Origin: Bacillus rubiinfantis
GTDB lineage: Bacteria; Bacillota; Bacilli; Bacillales; Cytobacillaceae
Direction of reading: 5' to 3'
Assembly (NCBI GenBank): GCA_000752035.1
Contig: CCFE01000011.1
Location: 397,099 to 421,098, forward strand
Length of the DNA stretch: 24,000 bases
The notes under the pieces were generated by a model. The model searched no databases. It saw only the letters and a list, made by a program, of their open reading frames with translations, and had not been told where the DNA came from. Below are positions 2,341 through 23,604 of this stretch, in pieces. The position numbers and the translations under genes are program-made. Position 1 is the stretch's first letter; every line of letters starts with the position of its first letter.

Positions 2341-2376
2341 AACTGCAAAGGAGATTTACCGTTTTTTCTAAGCGAT

Positions 2377-2592
2377 ATCAGCAACTTTACCGATATATCA
2401 GCAATTCCGGCTGTGATATCAGTGCATTTTTGGAATTTATCAGCGATTCCAGCACAGATATCAGCGGGACTGCGAGGACTGCGCCCCGATTAGAAATATA
2501 TCAGCGATTTTGGAGCGGATATCAGCGAAAAATAAAATATATCAGCGCTTTTTCGAATATATCAGCGATCTTTTGAATAATCAGCGATTCGC
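2377..2592 (+). repeat. Direct-repeat array of the decamer ATCAGCGAWT: 10 copies at 19-21 bp spacing, with one 40-bp gap
   Basis: ATCAG cores start at 2377, 2397, 2418, 2439, 2460, 2500, 2521, 2541, 2561 and 2580. The best copies read ATATCAGCGATT. The array lies between convergent genes and ends 24 bp from the stop of the minus-strand deacetylase gene. Confidence 0.85.
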
Positions 2593-7485: not shown

Positions 7486-7559
7486 CTGGTAAGCCATATG
7501 GGAAATCTGTTCCAAGCAACGCGGGCGTAACGGCCAAACTTATTGGTAAATATGCCAGA

Positions 7560-8377
7560 GTTGTCCATTTGCGGCGGGCTATTGGACAACTTTTTCGAAA
7601 ATACGCCAGAGTTGTCCATTTGCGGCGGGCTATTGGACATCTTTTTCAAAAAAACACGAAAGTTGTCCATTTGCGGAGTTCTATTGGACAACTTTTTCCG
7701 AAAAACACGAAAGTTGTCCATTTGCGGGGTTCTATTGGACAACTTTTTCCGAAAAACACGAAAGTTGTCCATTTGCGGGGGGCTATTGGACAACTTTTTC
7801 GAAAATACACCATAGTTGTCCATTTGCGGGGTTCTATCGGACAACTTTTTCCGAAATACGCCAGAGTTGTCCATTTGCGGAGGGCTATTGGACAACTTTT
7901 TCGAAAATACACCATAGTTGTCCATTTGCGGGGGGCTATTGGACAACTTTTTCAAAAATACGCCAGAGTTGTCCATTTGCGGGGGGCTATTGGACAACTT
8001 TTTCGAAAATACGCCAGAGTTGTCCATTTGCGGAGTTCTATTGGACAACTTTTTCCGAAAAGCGCCAGAGTTGTCCATTTGCGGCGGGCTATTGGACAAC
8101 TTTTTCCGAAAAACACCAGAGTTGTCCATTTGCGGAGGGCTATTGGACAAGTTTTTCCGAAAAACACGAAAGTTGTCCATTTGCGGAGGGCTATTGGACA
8201 ACTTTTTCCGAAAAACACCAGAGTTGTCCATTTGCGGAGGGCTATTGGACAGCTTTTTCGAAAATACGCCAGAGTTGTCCATTTGCGGAGGGCTATTGGA
8301 CAACTTTTTCAAAAATACGCCAGAGTTGTCCATTAGCGGGGGGGCTATTGGACAGCTTTTTCGAAAATACGCCACAC
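7560..8377. repeat. Tandem array of 16 copies of a 51-bp unit containing an 8-bp-stem inverted repeat
   Basis: GTTGTCCA starts fall at 7560, 7611, 7662 and so on to 8325, all exactly 51 bp apart. The unit is GTTGTCCA-N15-TGGACAAC-TTTTTC(C)GAAAAWACRCCAGA. Long ORFs in four of six frames are a consequence of the repeat. Confidence 0.95.
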
Positions 8378-14129: not shown

Positions 14130-14145
14130 TGCAAAAAGCGTGCCA
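14130..14145 (-). promoter_or_regulatory. Sigma-54 (-24/-12) promoter of the PTS operon
   Basis: Minus strand reads TGGCAC-GCTTT-TTGCA, an exact match to TGGCAC-N5-TTGCA. It lies about 60 nt upstream of the EIIA start and directly downstream of a gene for a sigma-54 activator. Confidence 0.85.
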
Positions 14146-14171: not shown

Positions 14172-16958
14172 CTAAAAATCTTCGTCATCGCTTGCTACAG
14201 CAGCTAAGTAATCGTAAATATAGCCGATTTCTGCTGTATTGATTTTGACATTATAAATTGATTCTATGACACTAAAAGCCTCTTGGATGTATTTAATCAT
14301 CTCTTTTTGACACTGTTCGAAATTTTCAAGATGTTCATACGTATCAATCGGCGCCTGACGGATTAATCGCTCCACCAAACAGCTGACATGGACATAAAGG
14401 GCAACTTTTTTATCATTAGGCAGCCGTTGGTTTAGTCGAATTTCTAAACGATGGATAAACTCTTCCGCCTGGGAAAGAATTTTTTCCGAATCCAGTATCG
14501 TCAATGATTCAATCACTCGCTGCAGGGAAAAATTCCGAAGCAAATTATCATTAATTTCTTTATATCGTGCTTCCTCCATGATTGACAGAAAGATTTTCCG
14601 CATCGTCGCTTCGCCCTGACCTGAGATAATATCCTCCAGTGATAGATACGGTACATCGGCAATTCCCGGATTGGCTGTGCCCACAATTGCAAGAACGTCA
14701 TGCAGTTGAAAAATCGCCTCCGAGGACCCAAGTTCTTTTAAGCGCTCAAAATCATACGCCTGAACTTGGAGCGCTAAATCCGCTGGCATGCTTGCCTCCA
14801 GCAATTTTTGAATTTGCAAGGCCGTTCCCATGCCTGTTAGACAGGTGGTAATAATCACTTTTTCCTTCGCTTTTTCTGGGTAAATAATATTATATTCGGT
14901 TTGGTTGGCTTGGCGTAATTTTTCCAGCATCTCTTCTAAAAATAAATCCTGCTCCAGCATGCTGCCGAGGAATAACGCCATTTGTGTCGATACATTATTA
15001 ATGATCGCGACCGGTCCATTGAGCTGCTGTTTAAATTGGGCATGAATATCTTTTAAAGAGCCCATATCGACTAAGAGGATGAGCCCCTTCGAGATGTCGT
15101 GATGTTCAATATAATGGTAGACCTTCGCCGCTATTTCCTCTACAGAAATGTCTAGCGGCATATCAAAAGCCTCAAATACATTTTTCTTCAAGAGCCGATT
15201 AGCGACATTGGCAATACTGCTGGCGGTTGCATAGCCATGCGCGAGAATAATTGCCTTCACTTGTTGGTTGCTTCGTTCAATCGCGACACTCCGCAAATAA
15301 AGGCTGAGAAAGATTTCATCCATTTGTTCCAGTTTCACTTCTAATCTACTTTCTAACAGATGGACAAAATGGTTCGCCAGCTGCTGCTCGAGCTTATATG
15401 ATTCTTCAATATAGTTTGCCAGTTGTTCAATCATGCTCTCCTGTCTTTCATGCCAGCGCAAATCGGCATTGCCTTTGTAATAGAGGAAATGGGCAATGGC
15501 GTAAATACTATTGCCATTAAATTGAACGTGATAATTTGTCTCTAAAAATTGGATAATTTCTTGGACACTTATCGTCGTGAGTTCGAGCCAAACGCCGGCA
15601 TCCTCCTTTGACCCGGTAAAGATAAGCTGATCAAACAGCAGCTGAATACCTTGAAAAACTTTTTGCTCAAAGACAGCTGCCGTTAGTTTTTTTGCCTGGT
15701 GTTCTTCATATAACAGCAACAATTGTGCAAAACTTTTCTTAATCAATTGTACCTGCGAGAGGTTTGTCTCGGTTAATTGCTCCAGGGCAGCATCAGGGGC
15801 AATTACAATATCATGGTTCTGTTTTACTTTATAGTCGGTTTTGCGCAGTGTTTCTTCCAAAATTCGATCTGGAAGATGGTGTAACGTAATCCGCACCTCT
15901 TCTGCTTCGCGATTTTTCGCAAATGATGAACCGGCAATATATTGAATAGTGTTTTTCAAGTCACCCATATTTCCGGGATAATGATAGCTTGTTAACGCCT
16001 CGAGAATTCGGCGGGTCAGCTGAAGCGGTTTGCCCAATTTTTGTGCTTCCTGTAATAAAAACATGTAAACAAATTGGCGCTTCTCCTTTTCACCGCGCTC
16101 ATCCAAGCTCGGAATAGTGACGCGGATCGGAATCCGTCGCAGGAAGGTCGGTAAAAAGTTAGCGGCCAAATCCTCCGTTGTCGCAAAAATCAGACGGACG
16201 TTTGCGTGATGGTTGCCTTCACTTTCCCCCATGCGGCGGTACACGCCTTGGTCGAGAAATGTGAATAGTTTCTCCTGCCCCTCCGCATTCAGGCGATGGA
16301 CTTCATCTAAAAATAAAATTCCGCCATCCGCCGCGGCCAGCAAGCCATCCTTTGTTTTCTCCGCACCTGTAAACGCACCTTTGACATAACCAAATAGATT
16401 GCTTGACATCAGCTCCGGATTGTTGGCATATTGCGCACAGTTGAAGCTGATAAACGGGGCATTTTGGTCGATGATTCCCTTTTCAACACTGTAGCGATGG
16501 ATGAGGCCGGCGGTAAAGCTCTTGCCAACACCTGTCGGGCCGACGAGAATCAGCGGCAGGCCGGTTCCTGGATAATAGATAGACGTTTTAATTTGCTCAA
16601 TCGCCTTTTTCAGACTGCCATCAGCACCAATTAAACGAGAAAAAATATCATGCTCCTCTTCCCGCGGCTCCGGCTGTTGCGCCTGCAACTCTTGAAAACT
16701 TTGAAAAATATGAGTAGACAGCAGCGGGAAAAATTTCTGTTCAAAGGTCGAGCGGCTCAAAAAATAGACCGGCCGCGTGTTAATTTTTATCACTCTACCC
16801 TCTTCCACCAGCTGGTTAAGATAGTGACTTACCGTGTTGCGTTTGACAACAAAGCACGCAGACATGGAGCTTGCCGTCAGCTTTTCAGAAGGATTGTCCC
16901 AATCAAAGCTTGTCGTTTCTTGTTCTAAAAATGCCAGTAATCTTTCTTTCAGGCTCAT
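14172..16958 (-). CDS. LevR/ManR-type sigma-54-dependent transcriptional activator (HTH, AAA+ domain, then PRD / EIIA-like / EIIB-like / PRD)
   Basis: 928 aa. Walker A is GPTGVGKS, with the sigma-54 contact motif GAFTGA and GGILFLDEVHRL. The long C-terminal PRD/PTS-regulation region is typical of LevR. GGGGGTG RBS. Ends in ASDDEDF. Confidence 0.9.
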   Translation of the reverse strand: MSLKERLLAFLEQETTSFDWDNPSEKLTASSMSACFVVKRNTVSHYLNQLVEEGRVIKINTRPVYFLSRSTFEQKFFPLLSTHIFQSFQELQAQQPEPREEEHDIFSRLIGADGSLKKAIEQIKTSIYYPGTGLPLILVGPTGVGKSFTAGLIHRYSVEKGIIDQNAPFISFNCAQYANNPELMSSNLFGYVKGAFTGAEKTKDGLLAAADGGILFLDEVHRLNAEGQEKLFTFLDQGVYRRMGESEGNHHANVRLIFATTEDLAANFLPTFLRRIPIRVTIPSLDERGEKEKRQFVYMFLLQEAQKLGKPLQLTRRILEALTSYHYPGNMGDLKNTIQYIAGSSFAKNREAEEVRITLHHLPDRILEETLRKTDYKVKQNHDIVIAPDAALEQLTETNLSQVQLIKKSFAQLLLLYEEHQAKKLTAAVFEQKVFQGIQLLFDQLIFTGSKEDAGVWLELTTISVQEIIQFLETNYHVQFNGNSIYAIAHFLYYKGNADLRWHERQESMIEQLANYIEESYKLEQQLANHFVHLLESRLEVKLEQMDEIFLSLYLRSVAIERSNQQVKAIILAHGYATASSIANVANRLLKKNVFEAFDMPLDISVEEIAAKVYHYIEHHDISKGLILLVDMGSLKDIHAQFKQQLNGPVAIINNVSTQMALFLGSMLEQDLFLEEMLEKLRQANQTEYNIIYPEKAKEKVIITTCLTGMGTALQIQKLLEASMPADLALQVQAYDFERLKELGSSEAIFQLHDVLAIVGTANPGIADVPYLSLEDIISGQGEATMRKIFLSIMEEARYKEINDNLLRNFSLQRVIESLTILDSEKILSQAEEFIHRLEIRLNQRLPNDKKVALYVHVSCLVERLIRQAPIDTYEHLENFEQCQKEMIKYIQEAFSVIESIYNVKINTAEIGYIYDYLAAVASDDEDF

Positions 16959-17047
16959 AACATCACCCCCTAGAAAAGTAAAATCAGATAGATTAGTACC
17001 ATCTTAACATAAGTCATATAATGTTATAGGTTGAATTTTTGAAAATG

Positions 17048-17084
17048 CAAAAAGTGCCAGGCACCGTAAGTTGGTCCTGACACT
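17048..17084 (-). terminator. Candidate rho-independent terminator downstream (minus sense) of the ATTAGCGAAT array
   Basis: Minus strand reads AGUGUCAGG (17084..17076), a 14-nt loop, then CCUGGCACU (17061..17053), giving a 9-bp stem with one G-U pair, followed by U4-5. This would place the whole repeat array inside the 3' UTR of the dioxygenase transcript. Confidence 0.45.
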
Positions 17085-17135
17085 TGTTATTGGCTTAGAA
17101 AATTTTTTGCGAATTAAGTGGTTTTATGTGGATTT

Positions 17136-17412
17136 ATTAGCGGTTTTGAGCAGTTTATGAGCGAATTTAAACAGGATATTAGCGAATTTTAGAGTTTATT
17201 AGCGAATCCAAGCAGGATATTAGCGAATTTTAGAGTTTATTAGCGAATCCTAACAGGATATTAGCGAATTTATCAGTTTATTAGCGAATTCAAACAGGAT
17301 ATTAGCGAATTTTAGAGTTTATTAGCGAATCCAAGCAGGATATTAGCGAATTTATCAGTTTATTAGCGAATCCTAACAGGATATTAGCGAATTTCCAAAT
17401 ATATTAGCGAAT
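17136..17412 (+). repeat. Direct-repeat array of ATTAGCGAAT: 14 copies with alternating 21/20-bp spacing, giving a 41-bp higher-order unit
   Basis: Cores start at 17136, 17157 (ATGAGCGAAT), 17178, 17198, 17219, 17239, 17260, 17280, 17301, 17321, 17342, 17362, 17383 and 17403. The array ends 17 bp from the stop of the minus-strand dioxygenase gene. Confidence 0.9.
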
Positions 17413-17428
17413 CGAAAAAAGCGCCAGT

Positions 17429-18274
17429 TTAGATGACGAGCCTGATACGATTTCCCGAGGGATCACTGGTGAGATAGTCATCTCCTTGTTCTTGGATCGG
17501 TGCGCCGAGCTGCTTGAGCTTGGTGATGACCGTTTCCCTCCCATCAGCGTCATGGTAAACAATCGTATACGAGGCTAAACCGACACTGTTATCCGCCGGC
17601 TGTTTGGCTCCGATTCCCTGCCAGGTGTTAATCGCGATATGATGGTGATATCCGCTCGTTGAAAGGAACACGGCCTGTGGGTAATAGCTGACCACTTCGA
17701 AGCCGAGTCCATTTGTATAAAATTCCTGTGCTGCCTGCAAATCAGCAACATGGAGATGGATATGTCCCATAACGGTGCCCTCAGGTAAACCTGTCCATGC
17801 TTCATCACATTCTGAGAGAATCCCTTCTGAATCCAGCGGATCGGTCGCCATTTCGACAAGCCCATTTTTCCATTGCCATTCAGCTGCTGGACGGTCGCGA
17901 TAGACCTCAATCCCATTCCCGTCCGGATCATTGAGGTAAAGCGCCTCACTAACAAGATGATCTGCAGCTCCAAGCGGATAGCCCGTTTTTAGAATGTGTC
18001 GGAGGAAACGAGCGAAATCAGCCCTTGACGGCAGTAAAATTGCAAAATGGTAAAGTCCTGTTGTCCGCGGTTCTTTTGCAATGACATTGATGGGCTGTTC
18101 AAGCGTCAAGAGCGGTGTGCTGCCGTCAGCGGTCAGCACCGCTTTTTGCGCAGTTTGTTCTAAAACTTGGAAGCCAAGAATTTTTTGATAAAATTTTACG
18201 GAGGCGTTGAAATTTTTGACCTTAATGGTCACATCACTAACGTATACGGTTGGCTTTTGGTGGAAATGATTCAT
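17429..18274 (-). CDS. Two-domain VOC-family (glyoxalase / extradiol ring-cleavage dioxygenase) protein, CatE/Mhq-like
   Basis: 281 aa with two glyoxalase-like halves (VKFYQKILGFQVLE and QEFYTNGLGFEVVS) and the His/Glu metal-ligand pattern HFAILLP ... HIHLHV. GAGGT RBS. The overlapping 132-aa ORF is out of frame and rejected. Confidence 0.8.
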   Translation of the reverse strand: MNHFHQKPTVYVSDVTIKVKNFNASVKFYQKILGFQVLEQTAQKAVLTADGSTPLLTLEQPINVIAKEPRTTGLYHFAILLPSRADFARFLRHILKTGYPLGAADHLVSEALYLNDPDGNGIEVYRDRPAAEWQWKNGLVEMATDPLDSEGILSECDEAWTGLPEGTVMGHIHLHVADLQAAQEFYTNGLGFEVVSYYPQAVFLSTSGYHHHIAINTWQGIGAKQPADNSVGLASYTIVYHDADGRETVITKLKQLGAPIQEQGDDYLTSDPSGNRIRLVI

Positions 18275-18360: not shown

Positions 18361-18465
18361 GCTACTTGTGGATAGCTCCACACTTCTTGCGCTTGTGTTC
18401 GCATTACTTGCGCTTGAGACCACGTTACTTGTGCTTAATCCCCACAGACCCTCTTACTTAAGCAT
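18361..18465 (+). repeat. Degenerate phased array of TTACTTGYGCTT-like words (5 copies, about 21-bp spacing)
   Basis: CTACTTGTGGAT (18362), CACTTCTTGCGCTTG (18381), ATTACTTGCGCTTG (18403), GTTACTTGTGCTTA (18424) and CTTACTTAAGCATA (18453). The track ORF 18344..18532 merely reads through it. Confidence 0.5.
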
Positions 18466-23246: not shown

Positions 23247-23567
23247 AAAAAACCACGCCCCTATCAATTTTTAGAATCGATAAGGACGTGGTTGGAATCA
23301 CGTGGTACCACCTTAATTTACTGACTGCTCACGCAAATCAGCCTCTGCAAGTACGGAGCTCTCATTAGTTATGGCTCTTTATACTGTGGTATGGATAACG
23401 AGTACCAAATCTCGACGGAACCTACTTCAATCAGTAAATCGGGATATCTCCCTAGATTGTTTCAGCACGCAGCTCCGAGGCCATTGTTCGGATTGATATT
23501 TTTGCTTCTTTTCAGCTACCGAAGCTCTCTGTGAAAAAATAACACAATCGTACTTTCCCTCTTCAAC
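23247..23567 (-). promoter_or_regulatory. T-box leader (tRNA-sensing riboswitch) with terminator; probable Met (AUG) specifier
   Basis: Read on the minus strand. Stem I carries an AGTA box, the AGAGAG bulge and a distal loop GGTAGCTGAAAA. The specifier loop is CGAACA-ATG-G (ATG = complement 23482..23484), closed by CCTC pairing with GAGG. The T-box sequence AATTAAGGTGGTACCACG is at 23318..23301. The terminator AACCACGTCCTTATC ... GATAGGGGCGTGGTT plus T6 is at 23295..23247. Confidence 0.85.
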
Positions 23568-23604
23568 GCTTTATAACTTTTTATTGAGTTTGAAAATTTA
23601 CTCA

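What the first reader, a model, noticed from the sequence alone, without database searches (positions are those of the whole stretch)
17130..17415. Iteron-like array: 14 direct ATTAGCGAAT decamers at alternating 21/20-bp spacing (41-bp higher-order unit)
Core starts are 17136, 17157, 17178, 17198, 17219, 17239, 17260, 17280, 17301, 17321, 17342, 17362, 17383 and 17403. From 17157 onward the spacing alternates 21, 20, 21, 20 and so on without exception.

The real unit is therefore a 41-bp dimer: ATTAGCGAAT-TT(TAGAG/ATCAG)TTT-ATTAGCGAAT-(CCAAGC/CCTAAC/TCAAAC)AGGAT. The two spacer classes each have alternative cassettes that are recombined between dimers, which is the same cassette-shuffling behaviour seen in the 51-bp array.

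A spacing of 20.5 bp is two helical turns. That matches the geometry of plasmid iterons and of chromosomal titration loci, so this looks like a one-faced array of protein-binding sites. No rep or par gene is adjacent.

The array begins 17 bp after the stop of the minus-strand dioxygenase gene. The only terminator-like hairpin (17084..17048) lies beyond it. The array may therefore also be transcribed as a 3' UTR reading (AUUCGCUAAU-N10)n, a possible RNA-binding-protein sponge.
Basis: seen in the sequence. Interest (0 to 1): 0.7.

Follow-up and report, generated by a model that had tools for sequence, protein, structure and literature searches.

The report
Orphan array of nuclease-associated DNA repeats
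The 14-copy repeat is real and belongs to a repeat family, apparently undescribed, that is scattered through Bacillus-type genomes and whose members flank, and vary in step with, a family of uncharacterised nuclease genes, so it is most likely a row of docking sites for such a protein rather than a plasmid-style origin or an RNA sponge.

Summary
At 17135-17417 there are 12 exact ATTAGCGAAT cores plus two degenerate ones, spaced 21/20 bp, non-coding and unstructured.

The genome is Bacillus rubiinfantis. The array is not specific to this locus: orthologous VOC genes in Neobacillus lack it, and a second, degenerate array of the same family lies at about 2366-2592.

The family is widespread in Bacillaceae. 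Its unit is about 16 conserved bp (TTyT-ATYRGCGA-wTTT) plus 5 variable bp, with a 20/21-bp period. In orthologous Lysinibacillus arrays the cores stay identical while the spacers drift.

The key result concerns genes for a ~320-aa protein made of a NERD (PD-(D/E)XK) nuclease, a zinc ribbon and a winged helix. These genes have several copies per genome and are bracketed by such arrays. Of 8 loci fetched by protein alone, 8 had an upstream array and 7 a downstream one. The variable core dinucleotide changes together with residues at the start of the predicted recognition helix. Helix S-I-H-x-A-K-R goes with ATTAGCGA, the window's core, in 4 of 4 cases.

In Neobacillus, some arrays also lie inside IS1595-type miniature transposons (MITEs) with 8-bp target duplications.

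My reading is that this is a solo array of cognate binding sites for such a protein. Whether B. rubiinfantis encodes one could not be tested. The iteron reading is partly supported and the RNA-sponge reading is disfavoured. I found no published description.

The parts
17135..17417 (+). Tandem array of 14 units. Core ATTAGCGAAT (12 exact, 2 degenerate) with alternating 10- and 11-nt spacers; 41-bp dimer and 123-bp higher-order period. It shows the family polarity: the first unit is ATTAGCGGTTTT and the last is ATTAGCGAATCGAAAAAAGC.
   Evidence: Polarity is shared with arrays in other genera.
17048..17084 (-). Strong intrinsic-terminator hairpin with a U-rich tail. For the VOC transcript it lies AFTER the array.
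   Evidence: dG -18.2 kcal/mol, tail UUUGCAUU.
17422..17438 (-). Weak hairpin (5 pairs) followed by CUUUUUUCG. It overlaps the VOC stop codon and lies immediately BEFORE the array, so it is a possible leaky terminator.
17429..18274 (-). VOC/glyoxalase-family gene whose stop codon lies 16 nt from the array. Its C-terminus (..NRIRLVI*) is the normal family end, so the array did not alter the gene.
14172..16958 (-). LevR-type sigma-54 activator gene downstream of the array and terminator. It is a neighbour only; no functional link was found.
   Evidence: The sigma-54 promoter is at 14145..14130.
2366..2592 (+). Second, more degenerate array of the same family: (T)ATATCAGCGAT-type cores at about 20-21-bp spacing, interrupted at 2467-2495. 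It also lies between the stop of a minus-strand gene (2616) and a bidirectional terminator (2302-2338).

Best explanation
The array is an orphan ('solo') member of a family of tandem arrays found across Bacillaceae. Each unit has about 16 conserved bp (TTyT-AT-NN-GCGA-wTTT) and about 5 free bp, repeated every 20-21 bp.

I infer that the arrays are the cognate DNA sites of a multi-copy family of ~320-aa proteins. Each protein combines a NERD (PD-(D/E)XK) nuclease domain, a four-cysteine zinc ribbon and a C-terminal winged helix. Each gene of this family sits between two co-oriented arrays.

In this picture one protein docks on each core. Successive cores lie two helical turns apart, so the proteins line up on one face of the DNA. 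The middle dinucleotide of the core (TA here) is read by the first residues of the recognition helix.

Steps shown by the data:
- family membership of the window's array;
- conserved phasing;
- conservation of the cores;
- physical association of arrays with NERD genes;
- co-variation between helix residues and the core dinucleotide.

Steps that are inferred:
- actual binding or cleavage by the protein;
- that B. rubiinfantis has such a protein;
- how solo arrays arise.

My best guess for the origin of solo arrays is threefold: loss of the gene by recombination between its two flanking arrays (as with solo LTRs) or arrays serving as landing pads; unequal crossing-over, which changes copy number; and, in Neobacillus, hitch-hiking inside IS1595-type MITEs.

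The array is not a replicon iteron set and not a dedicated regulator of the VOC or levR genes. Any effect on the VOC mRNA 3' end would be incidental.
For: Family and phasing
Most were from Bacillaceae.
- 99 arrays (611 units) give a logo with conservation at positions the search did not impose (-3..-1 and +8..+11) and no information at 5 positions.
- Spacing is 21 bp (363 cases) or 20 bp (119).

Constraint on the cores
- In orthologous Lysinibacillus arrays the flanks mostly align at 85-97% identity (some flank windows, shifted by copy-number differences, aligned poorly at 41-63%), and spacers show 64-85% best-match identity.
- In locus A (L004/L043/L066) every core after the first is exactly TATCAGCGAT.
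- In locus B the leading units and one terminal unit deviate.
- Copy number at one site is 6-8 versus 65.

Link to NERD genes
- 10 of 121 ORFs flanking arrays are NERD proteins, against my rough guess of about 0.1 if such genes are ~0.1% of a genome.
- These genes are typically bracketed by arrays, the gene-sense strand reading the reverse complement of the motif.
- Of 8 loci fetched by protein identity only, 8 of 8 have an upstream array and 7 of 8 a downstream one.
- A 36%-identical homologue on a B. thuringiensis megaplasmid also has a 20-bp array ending 10 nt before its ribosome-binding site.

Co-variation
- Helix xSIH(T/A)AKR goes with ATTAGCGA in 4 of 4 loci.
- SEDTAKR goes with ATCGGCGA, xIxTAGR with ATTTGCGA, SRDTAKR with ATG(G/A)GCGA and SSNIAYK with TATCCGTCA.
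- P0199 and P0181 occupy the same pheT locus and are 83% identical. Their differences are concentrated in the last 40 residues, and their arrays differ (TA versus CG).

Protein
- The alignment keeps the catalytic-type residues Q77, D79 and K94 and the cysteines of the zinc ribbon (C254 and C257 invariant, C240 in at least 90%).
- The AlphaFold2 model has pLDDT 93.4.
- Foldseek gives restriction-endonuclease-like matches and winged-helix matches.
- Helix positions 294, 295 and 298 are hypervariable (2.9-3.2 bits) next to conserved S293, A297, R299 and L301 in 269 members.

The window's own array has the TA core, the family polarity and 20/21-bp phasing.
Against: - No NERD homologue lies in the 24-kb window (tblastn).
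- B. rubiinfantis is not among the named top-120 homologues in two searches, so a cognate protein in this genome is unproven.
- The co-variation rests on 16 loci that are not phylogenetically independent.
- Some genes have different core types upstream and downstream (L143, L048 and L106).
- Binding and cleavage are untested. The structural matches are weak (best Foldseek E-value 4e-3).
- Arrays next to a gene could simply be its autoregulatory operators, without explaining the solo copies.
- Similarity between the window's post-array segment and the conserved NERD 5' leader is not significant (p 0.05-0.4).
- No terminal inverted repeats or target-site duplication flank the window's arrays. 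How this copy arrived is therefore unknown.
Confidence: 0.6

Rival explanations
1. The array is a neutral or selfish minisatellite with no trans-acting partner. It would be debris of mobile elements (MITE-borne arrays) that expands and contracts by slippage or unequal crossing-over. The uniform cores would reflect recent duplication only.
For: - Array-bearing IS1595-type MITEs with 8-bp target duplications exist in Neobacillus (L003 TTTACATA, L027 TTAAAAAA, L045 TTTGTGTA). The same inverted repeats bound a decayed IS1595-family element.
- The 123-bp higher-order repeat in the window shows recent duplication.
- Copy number is hypervariable.
- The array is absent at orthologous VOC loci.
- A published analogue exists: the BrickBuilt MITE with a 23-nt minisatellite (PMC4596501).
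Against: - Cores stay identical while positionally orthologous spacers diverge between species. Recency cannot explain that.
- Spacing is held at 20/21 bp.
- Most arrays, including both in the window, have no inverted repeats above the null level.
- The association and co-variation with NERD genes would be unexplained.
Confidence: 0.15
2. The array is a DNA-binding array for some other host protein, not the NERD family. That protein could be a nucleoid-associated or regulatory factor acting genome-wide. The NERD genes would then simply be preferred neighbours or targets.
For: - Core constraint and helical phasing.
- Arrays outnumber NERD genes: only about 13 of the ~75 array-bearing Bacillaceae loci carry a NERD homologue.
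- No NERD gene is known in this genome.
Against: - The core dinucleotide changes together with NERD helix residues, including within an 83%-identical syntenic pair.
- In 15 of 16 gene flanks in the protein-fetched loci an array is present in a fixed orientation.
Confidence: 0.12
3. The element acts at the RNA level. The array would be transcribed as the 3'UTR of the VOC mRNA, reading (AUUCGCUAAU-N10)n, and would act as a sponge or stability element for an RNA-binding protein.
For: - In this window both arrays lie between a stop codon and the strong terminator.
- The family shows a 2:1 orientation bias relative to the upstream gene (46 versus 23, p = 0.008).
- The RNA is unstructured, as expected for a single-stranded binding platform.
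Against: - In 46 of 80 relatives a terminator-like hairpin precedes the array, against 16 of 80 where it follows (strict rule 22 versus 3).
- One third of arrays are antisense.
- Arrays also lie upstream of NERD genes.
- Strict 20/21-bp spacing has no obvious meaning for RNA.
- There is no Rfam match.
Confidence: 0.08
4. The array is a true iteron or centromere-like set of an integrated or former replicon, serving for Rep/Par binding or initiator titration.
For: Direct repeats at about two helical turns resemble plasmid iterons and the 20-bp pSK41-type parC repeats (my own knowledge).
Against: - No rep, par or DnaA-box context is present.
- There is no similarity to any plasmid or phage record.
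- Two copies occur in 24 kb, and there are many across chromosomes of many genera.
- The array sits among housekeeping-type genes.
Confidence: 0.03

Closest known systems
REP/BIME elements and their RAYT (REP-associated tyrosine transposase) genes in Gammaproteobacteria (my own knowledge: Nunvar 2010; Bertels & Rainey 2011; Ton-Hoang 2012)
   Same: - A short dispersed intergenic repeat is present in many copies, mostly just downstream of genes.
- A nuclease or transposase-like gene is itself flanked by the cognate repeats.
- Different gene variants pair with different repeat variants.
   Different: - REPs are palindromic hairpins acting as single-stranded DNA, and they flank RAYT in inverted orientation. 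RAYT has an HUH/Y1 fold.
- Here the repeats are unstructured direct tandem units with variable spacers and flank the gene in direct orientation.
- The protein is a PD-(D/E)XK (NERD) nuclease with a zinc ribbon and a winged helix, and it has several copies per genome.
BrickBuilt MITE of Porphyromonas gingivalis (PMC4596501) and pneumococcal BOX elements
   Same: - Modular intergenic elements built as leader, variable number of tandem units, and tail.
- BrickBuilt is a minisatellite (23-nt units) inside a MITE. This parallels the Neobacillus IS1595-type MITEs that carry these arrays.
   Different: - BrickBuilt units have no variable spacers, and neither BrickBuilt nor BOX has an associated cognate protein gene.
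- The window's copy has no inverted repeats or target-site duplication.
- This family spans many genera.
Plasmid iterons (for example RepE/F, TrfA/RK2, pi/R6K) and type II centromeres (R1 parC; pSK41 20-bp repeats) (my own knowledge)
   Same: Direct repeats of about 10-22 bp phased at whole helical turns and bound cooperatively by one protein on one DNA face.
   Different: - Those sets lie next to their rep or par genes in a replicon and occur once per replicon.
- This array is chromosomal and dispersed, it has 5 free positions per unit, and its candidate partner is a nuclease-domain protein.
CRISPR arrays
   Same: Conserved repeat alternating with variable spacer, and a nuclease gene adjacent in some loci.
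   Different: - Repeat plus spacer totals only 20-21 bp, with about 5 variable nt.
- Spacers recur within an array.
- There are no cas genes and no leader of CRISPR type. It is not a CRISPR.

Membership tests
NERD-associated 20/21-bp arrays of Bacillaceae (family defined here) | Unit with core AT-NN-GCGA-(A/T)T flanked by T-rich positions, plus about 5 free positions | tested here: met
   The window units match the logo built from 611 units.
NERD-associated 20/21-bp arrays of Bacillaceae (family defined here) | Spacing of 20 or 21 bp between successive cores | tested here: met
   Strict 21/20 alternation in the window. Family spacing is 363 cases of 21 bp and 119 of 20 bp.
NERD-associated 20/21-bp arrays of Bacillaceae (family defined here) | Polarity: first unit ..AGCGG(A/T)TTT, last unit ..GCGAATC(G/A)A followed by an A-run | tested here: met
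   The window has ATTAGCGGTTTT first and ATTAGCGAATCGAAAAAAGC last. The same polarity is seen in L003, L019, L022, L110 and others.
NERD-associated 20/21-bp arrays of Bacillaceae (family defined here) | Adjacent NERD-zinc-ribbon-winged-helix gene | tested here: not met
   No homologue in the window (tblastn), so this is a solo array. Whether one lies elsewhere in the B. rubiinfantis genome could not be tested.
Plasmid/replicon iterons | Adjacent rep gene or origin features (AT-rich unwinding element, DnaA boxes) in a replicon context | tested here: not met
   Neighbours are a VOC gene and levR. No BLAST hit in the plasmid or phage collections.
Plasmid/replicon iterons | Direct repeats phased at whole helical turns | tested here: met
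   Mean spacing is 20.5 bp.
MITE (IS1595-type, as in Neobacillus relatives) | Terminal inverted repeats GGCTsTTTTCkwAAAGAwTGTTG at both ends | tested here: not met
   No match within 6 mismatches in the window. The best flank-to-flank inverted repeat scores 13/20, at or below the null level. One search agrees.
MITE (IS1595-type, as in Neobacillus relatives) | 8-bp target-site duplication | tested here: not met
   None is definable without inverted repeats. It is met in relatives L003, L027, L045 and L127.
REP/BIME | Imperfect palindrome forming a stable hairpin | tested here: not met
   Fold z-scores are -0.08 and +1.24 for the two strands.
CRISPR | Repeats of about 23-50 bp, unique spacers of about 26-72 bp, cas genes | tested here: not met
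   A 10-bp core with 10-11-bp spacers that recur. No cas domains nearby.
Any Rfam RNA family | Covariance-model match | tested here: not met
   No hit at gathering score; only noise at E > 1.
LevR upstream activating sequence / sigma-54 enhancer | Position shortly upstream of a -24/-12 promoter | tested here: not met
   The only perfect TGGCAC-N5-TTGCA lies at 14145..14130, 3 kb away. The TGGCACTTTTTGCAT inside the terminator has the wrong spacing.

The most novel reading that the evidence does not exclude
The arrays and the NERD-zinc-ribbon-winged-helix genes together form a previously unrecognised kind of genetic element in Bacillaceae. A sequence-specific PD-(D/E)XK nuclease would recognise, and perhaps cut, its own tandem 'landing-pad' arrays. 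Its gene lives inside such an array, in a homing-like manner. Protein and array would diversify together through a few recognition-helix residues and the core dinucleotide. Gene loss or conversion would leave many solo arrays such as the one in this window. This would be a direct-repeat, double-stranded-DNA counterpart of the REP/RAYT relationship.
Probability: 0.35. Interest if true: 0.85.

Novelty: new variant of a known kind. Interest (0 to 1): 0.7.

Why it matters
If the link holds, a conspicuous class of Bacillaceae intergenic repeats gains a candidate trans-acting partner. A large uncharacterised protein family also gains a predicted DNA target and a readable specificity code. That family has at least 944 clusters at 50% identity and is currently annotated only as 'nuclease-related domain-containing protein'.

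The predicted code is simple: helix residues 294, 295 and 298 against the core dinucleotide. It can be tested directly with EMSA or DAP-seq and helix swaps.

The result would add a second example, unrelated in fold, of the REP/RAYT principle of a repeat family co-evolving with a flanked nuclease gene. It could also supply programmable sequence-specific binders or nickases.

For genome annotation, it explains many spurious ORFs and assembly breaks. It also warns against reading each such array as a local regulatory element.

Tried and rejected
- **Rfam.** Searched at gathering score over the whole window and at E-value threshold over 16950-17450. Nothing relevant.
- **BLAST of the array.** No match in plasmids or phages.
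- **Literature.** Searches for the core sequences and for keyword combinations (tandem repeat / Lysinibacillus / intergenic; IS1595 / MITE / Bacillus; NERD domain / repeats) found no description of the family. They gave only the BrickBuilt analogue and general reviews.
- **Exact-protein look-up of the VOC gene.** Not on record.
- **Orthologous VOC loci.** No array is present and synteny is not conserved, so no filled-site versus empty-site comparison was possible.
- **Apparent right-hand inverted repeat in the window (GGCTCGTCATCTAAA).** Rejected. It is the conserved VOC C-terminal coding sequence ..RLVI*.
- **Apparent sigma-54 promoter in the terminator.** Rejected because the spacing is GG-N8-GC. 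The real one is at 14145..14130.
- **Chi-site, DnaA-box, cre and other known Bacillus motifs.** Considered from memory and rejected on sequence or orientation. They were not formally tested.
- **RNA or ssDNA structure of the array.** None found.
- **Coding potential.** Stops occur in all frames.
- **Homology of the window's post-array segment to the NERD 5' leader.** Not significant.
- **Viral contigs.** The pattern hits are coding heptad repeats or microsatellites, apart from one odd contig, L133. The collection holds no NERD-family relatives.
- **NCBIfam, PADLOC and PDB sequence searches of the NERD protein.** No named family.
- **B. rubiinfantis NERD homologue.** Not seen among the named top hits.
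Full report
**1. The observation**

The region 17135-17417 is a genuine tandem array.
- The sequence and the motif search show 12 exact ATTAGCGAAT cores between 17178 and 17412.
- They are preceded by ATGAGCGAAT at 17157 and ATTAGCGGTT at 17136.
- From 17157 the spacing alternates 21/20 bp without exception.
- Tandem Repeats Finder reports a 41-bp period (6.9 copies) and a 123-bp higher-order period.
- The decamer with up to 1 mismatch is expected 2.6 times in the whole window. None of 100 shuffles reached 14.
- No reading frame crosses the array.
- Neither strand folds better than shuffled controls (z = -0.08 and +1.24).

**2. Context in the window**

The window comes from Bacillus rubiinfantis. 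The adjacent protein is 100% identical to a VOC-family protein of that species.
- The array lies 16 nt after the stop of the minus-strand VOC/glyoxalase gene (17429-18274).
- It lies upstream of a LevR-type sigma-54 activator gene (14172-16958), which is followed by a mannose-type PTS operon.
- On the minus strand, a weak 5-bp hairpin plus U6 overlaps the stop codon (17438..17422).
- A strong hairpin (dG -18 kcal/mol) with a U-rich tail follows the array (17084..17048).
- The only perfect -24/-12 promoter (TGGCACGCTTTTTGCA) is at 14145..14130, between levR and the PTS genes, 3 kb away. The array is therefore not the LevR enhancer.
- A second, more degenerate array with (T)ATATCAGCGAT cores at about 20-21 bp sits at about 2366-2592. 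It too lies between the stop of a minus-strand gene and a terminator.

**3. The array is not specific to this locus**

VOC orthologues (about 75% identity) in Neobacillus and in metagenomic relatives are followed directly by a terminator and have no array. Their gene neighbourhoods also differ.

**4. A family across Bacillaceae**

I scanned one genome per species for three TCGCTRAT cores at 20/21-bp spacing.
- Hits outside Bacillaceae were 7-mer microsatellites or coding heptad repeats.
- The Bacillaceae hits were true relatives. They came from Lysinibacillus, Neobacillus, Priestia, Rossellomorea, Metabacillus, Salipaludibacillus, Cytobacillus, Ornithinibacillus, Alteribacillus and others.

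From 99 arrays and 611 units:
- The unit is T-T-y-T-A-T-C/T-A/G-G-C-G-A-w-t-t-t followed by 5 positions with no information. Conservation at -3..-1 and +8..+11 was not imposed by the search.
- Spacing is 21 bp (363 cases) or 20 bp (119). It is rarely 18-19 bp (9) or 22 bp (1).
- Arrays usually have 4-5 units, with a maximum of 65.
- The 20/21 alternation of the window recurs in several genera.

Arrays share a polarity. The first unit is ..AGCGG(A/T)TTT and the last is ..GCGAATC(G/A)A followed by an A-run. The window array has both.

**5. Position and orientation**

Among 87 Bacillaceae array regions:
- 46 have the stop codon of a gene on the strand opposite to the motif within 150 nt, which is the window's arrangement.
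- 23 have the opposite arrangement (p = 0.008).
- Only 5 lie between divergent genes.

A terminator-like hairpin lies between that upstream gene and the array in 46 of 80 cases, and after the array in 16 of 80. With a stricter rule the counts are 22 and 3. Most relatives are therefore outside the mature mRNA. The two arrays of this window are exceptions.

**6. Constraint on the cores**

Two arrays are retained at orthologous sites in Lysinibacillus species.
- Where the flank windows align, they are 85-97% identical. Some windows, shifted by differences in copy number, aligned poorly (41-63%).
- Positionally orthologous spacers are only 64-85% identical by best match.
- In locus A (L004/L043/L066) every core after the first is exactly TATCAGCGAT. 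In locus B the leading units and one terminal unit deviate.
- Copy number at one site is 6-8 in three species and 65 in a fourth.

The cores, and the spacing, are thus under constraint while the 5 variable positions drift. This argues against neutral junk and for sequence-specific recognition with helical phasing.

**7. One route of spread: MITEs**

In several Neobacillus loci the array lies inside a 201-317-bp element.
- The element is bounded by inverted repeats GGCTGTTTTCGTAAAGAATGTTG.. and ..CAACAATCTTTTAGAAAAGAGCC.
- It is flanked by 8-bp direct duplications: L003 TTTACATA, L027 TTAAAAAA, L045 TTTGTGTA.
- The same inverted repeats bound a decayed element on a Priestia flexa plasmid. That element contains a DDE_Tnp_IS1595 fragment.
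- They also bound passenger-carrying derivatives on B. cereus, Mesobacillus and Paenibacillus plasmids.

Most arrays, including both in the window, have no such repeats above a null distribution.

**8. The main lead: NERD genes**

Of 121 ORFs flanking Bacillaceae arrays, 10 match Pfam NERD (PF08378). My rough expectation, if such genes are about 0.1% of a genome, is about 0.1.

The proteins are about 315-334 aa. In Lysinibacillus, Ornithinibacillus and several Neobacillus loci the gene is bracketed by arrays on both sides, both oriented so that the gene-sense strand reads the reverse complement of the motif.
- The upstream array ends about 100-170 nt before the start codon.
- The downstream array begins 9-32 nt after the stop codon.
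- Some loci (L012, L048, L085) show an array on one side only, and L107 is atypical, with motif-sense cores upstream.

The family has several copies per genome: three listed paralogues in N. soli, four in Bacillus salipaludis and three in N. mesonae.

As an unbiased test I fetched 8 loci by protein identity alone (L143, L144, L145, L147, L148, L149, L150 and L151).
- All 8 have a 20-21-bp array directly upstream and 7 have one downstream.
- In L149, L145 and L106 the two flanking arrays also share their spacers (93%, 87% and 86% identity). In those loci the gene sits between direct duplicates.
- A 36%-identical homologue on a B. thuringiensis megaplasmid has four AATCGTTGATATAT units at 20 bp, ending 10 nt before its ribosome-binding site.

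**9. The protein**

- The alignment shows invariant Q77, D79 and K94 within hD..QID..(E/D)xK, a PD-(D/E)XK signature.
- It shows a CxxC...WxCxxC zinc ribbon. There are weak Pfam hits to Zn_ribbon_IS1595 and other zinc ribbons.
- It shows a helical C-terminus, KITNxQFREFxHxxSxxTAKRLL.
- The AlphaFold2 model is confident (pLDDT 93.4, pTM 0.89).
- Foldseek against PDB gives only weak matches (best E-value 4e-3). They are consistent, though. The N-terminal part matches restriction-endonuclease-like folds (BspD6I subunits, the R2 endonuclease domain, Bax1, SfsA, Can2, Hjc).
- The last ~60 residues match winged-helix DNA-binding domains.
- NCBIfam, PADLOC and PDB sequence searches name no family.
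- A profile search finds 944 clusters at 50% identity with E <= 1e-30. The 150 best listed are about 306-475 aa and match almost the whole profile.
- There are no relatives in IMG/VR and only one on a plasmid.

**10. Co-variation**

The core dinucleotide (AT-NN-GCGA) is uniform within an array but differs between arrays. It tracks the residues at the start of the third helix of the winged helix, positions 293-299 of P0164.

| Helix | Core | Loci or proteins |
|---|---|---|
| xSIH(T/A)AKR | ATTAGCGA, on both sides | 4 of 4: L145, L148, L150, L097 |
| SEDTAKR | ATCGGCGA | L149 (P0181) |
| xIxTAGR | ATTTGCGA | L151 both sides; L143 downstream |
| SRDTAKR | ATG(G/A)GCGA | L144 |
| SSNIAYK | TATCCGTCA | L147 |
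| SEHV(T/A)KR, SSHVTKR | TATCAGCG | Lysinibacillus, Ornithinibacillus |

- The syntenic pair P0199 (N. mesonae) and P0181 (N. kokaensis) both lie between pheT and rnhC and are 83% identical. Their differences are concentrated in the last 40 residues (SIH versus SED), and all their flanking units differ (TA versus CG).
- Across 269 family members, positions 294, 295 and 298 are hypervariable (3.24, 2.90 and 3.07 bits; the mean is 2.0). They sit between conserved S293, A297, R299 and L301.
- Exceptions exist. L143, L048 and L106 have different types upstream and downstream.
- The sample is small and not phylogenetically independent.

**11. Interpretation**

The window's array carries the TA core, which is cognate to the SIH subgroup. 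I read it as a solo array of docking sites for a NERD-zinc-ribbon-winged-helix protein, with the sites lined up on one DNA face.

The data show family membership, phasing, core constraint, physical association with the genes, and co-variation. Three things are inferred: binding or cleavage, the presence of the protein in B. rubiinfantis, and the origin of solo arrays.
- No homologue lies in the window.
- None was seen among the named top hits.

Possible origins of solo arrays are recombination between the two arrays flanking a gene, arrays acting as landing pads, unequal crossing-over, and MITE transport. The similarity of the window's post-array segment to the conserved NERD 5' leader is not significant.

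**12. Comparison and novelty**

- The closest functional analogue is REP/RAYT (my own knowledge).
- The closest architectural analogues are the BrickBuilt MITE minisatellite (PMC4596501) and BOX elements.
- Plasmid iterons share only the phased direct repeats.
- Rfam, sequence-string searches and keyword searches of 8 million papers gave no description of this family or of NERD-associated arrays.

I therefore class it as a new variant of a known kind: a dispersed repeat family with a flanked cognate nuclease gene. There is a fair chance that it represents a distinct class of element.

Noticed in passing
window 2366-2592: A second, degenerate array of the same family: (T)ATATCAGCGAT cores at about 20-21 bp, interrupted at 2467-2495. 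It lies between the stop of the minus-strand polysaccharide-deacetylase gene (2616) and a perfect 15-bp bidirectional terminator (2302-2338).
   Followed up: partly
window 18378-18436: Three 21-bp units with a different core (..TTACTTGCGCTTG..), lying in the divergent intergenic region between the VOC gene and a 129-aa ORF with no Pfam match. This is another 21-bp-period mini-array of unknown relation.
   Followed up: no
window 14130-14145 (minus strand): A perfect sigma-54 promoter, TGGCACGCTTTTTGCA, between levR and the EIIA gene of the mannose-type PTS operon. By contrast, the TGGCACTTTTTGCAT inside the terminator at about 17050-17064 has GG-N8-GC spacing and is probably not a promoter.
   Followed up: partly
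window 7537-8374: A 51-bp tandem array (16.4 copies, 90% matches) downstream of the HAD hydrolase gene, covered by spurious ORFs in several frames. Its unit is unrelated to the ATTAGCGAAT family.
   Followed up: no
window 23279-23575 (minus strand): A T-box leader (Rfam RF00230, 111.5 bits). It lies upstream of an operon encoding a SAM hydroxide adenosyltransferase-like protein, an ECF S-component and ECF ATPase/T components. That is unusual cargo for a T-box.
   Followed up: no
L021 2000-2300 (Neobacillus novalis): A 21-bp array with a quite different core (CAACTGTCGTAAA). It is followed by the same IS1595-type terminal repeat (AAAAGCAACAAACTTTTAGTAAACAGCC) immediately upstream of purD. This suggests that the MITE family carries more than one kind of array.
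   Followed up: no
L127 1691-2525, L139 2003-2572, L141 2002-2624, L128 2512-3814 (plasmids of B. cereus, Mesobacillus, Paenibacillus polymyxa and Priestia flexa): Elements bounded by the same IS1595-type inverted repeats, with 8-bp duplications in L127 (TTGCTAAA, exact) and L139 (7 of 8); none is recognisable in L141. They carry small passenger ORFs or a decayed transposase. None is annotated as mobile in the records.
   Followed up: partly
L133 11970-12620 (IMG/VR contig, GC 37%): Two inverted sets of 20-bp repeats, GGTCTTATCAGCGATTTTTT (3+3 on each side), around an AT-rich segment with ACTTTGAAAAT repeats. The layout looks like an origin or a terminal-repeat region. The core is the same as the Bacillaceae consensus, but the neighbouring proteins have no Pfam match.
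   Followed up: partly
L143, L148, L149 (Neobacillus soli, N. mesonae, N. kokaensis): A NERD gene with its two arrays occupies the same site, between pheT and the pterin-4a/rnhC/zapA genes, in three species. The core type differs in each (CA/TT, TA, CG). The arrays appear to change in concert at a vertically inherited locus.
   Followed up: partly
L004 5643-7038 (minus orientation), Lysinibacillus sp. BPa_S21: An array of 65 units (1.4 kb) upstream of the NERD gene, where sister species have 6-8 units. The locus lies next to flagellin and UDP-glucose dehydrogenase genes.
   Followed up: partly
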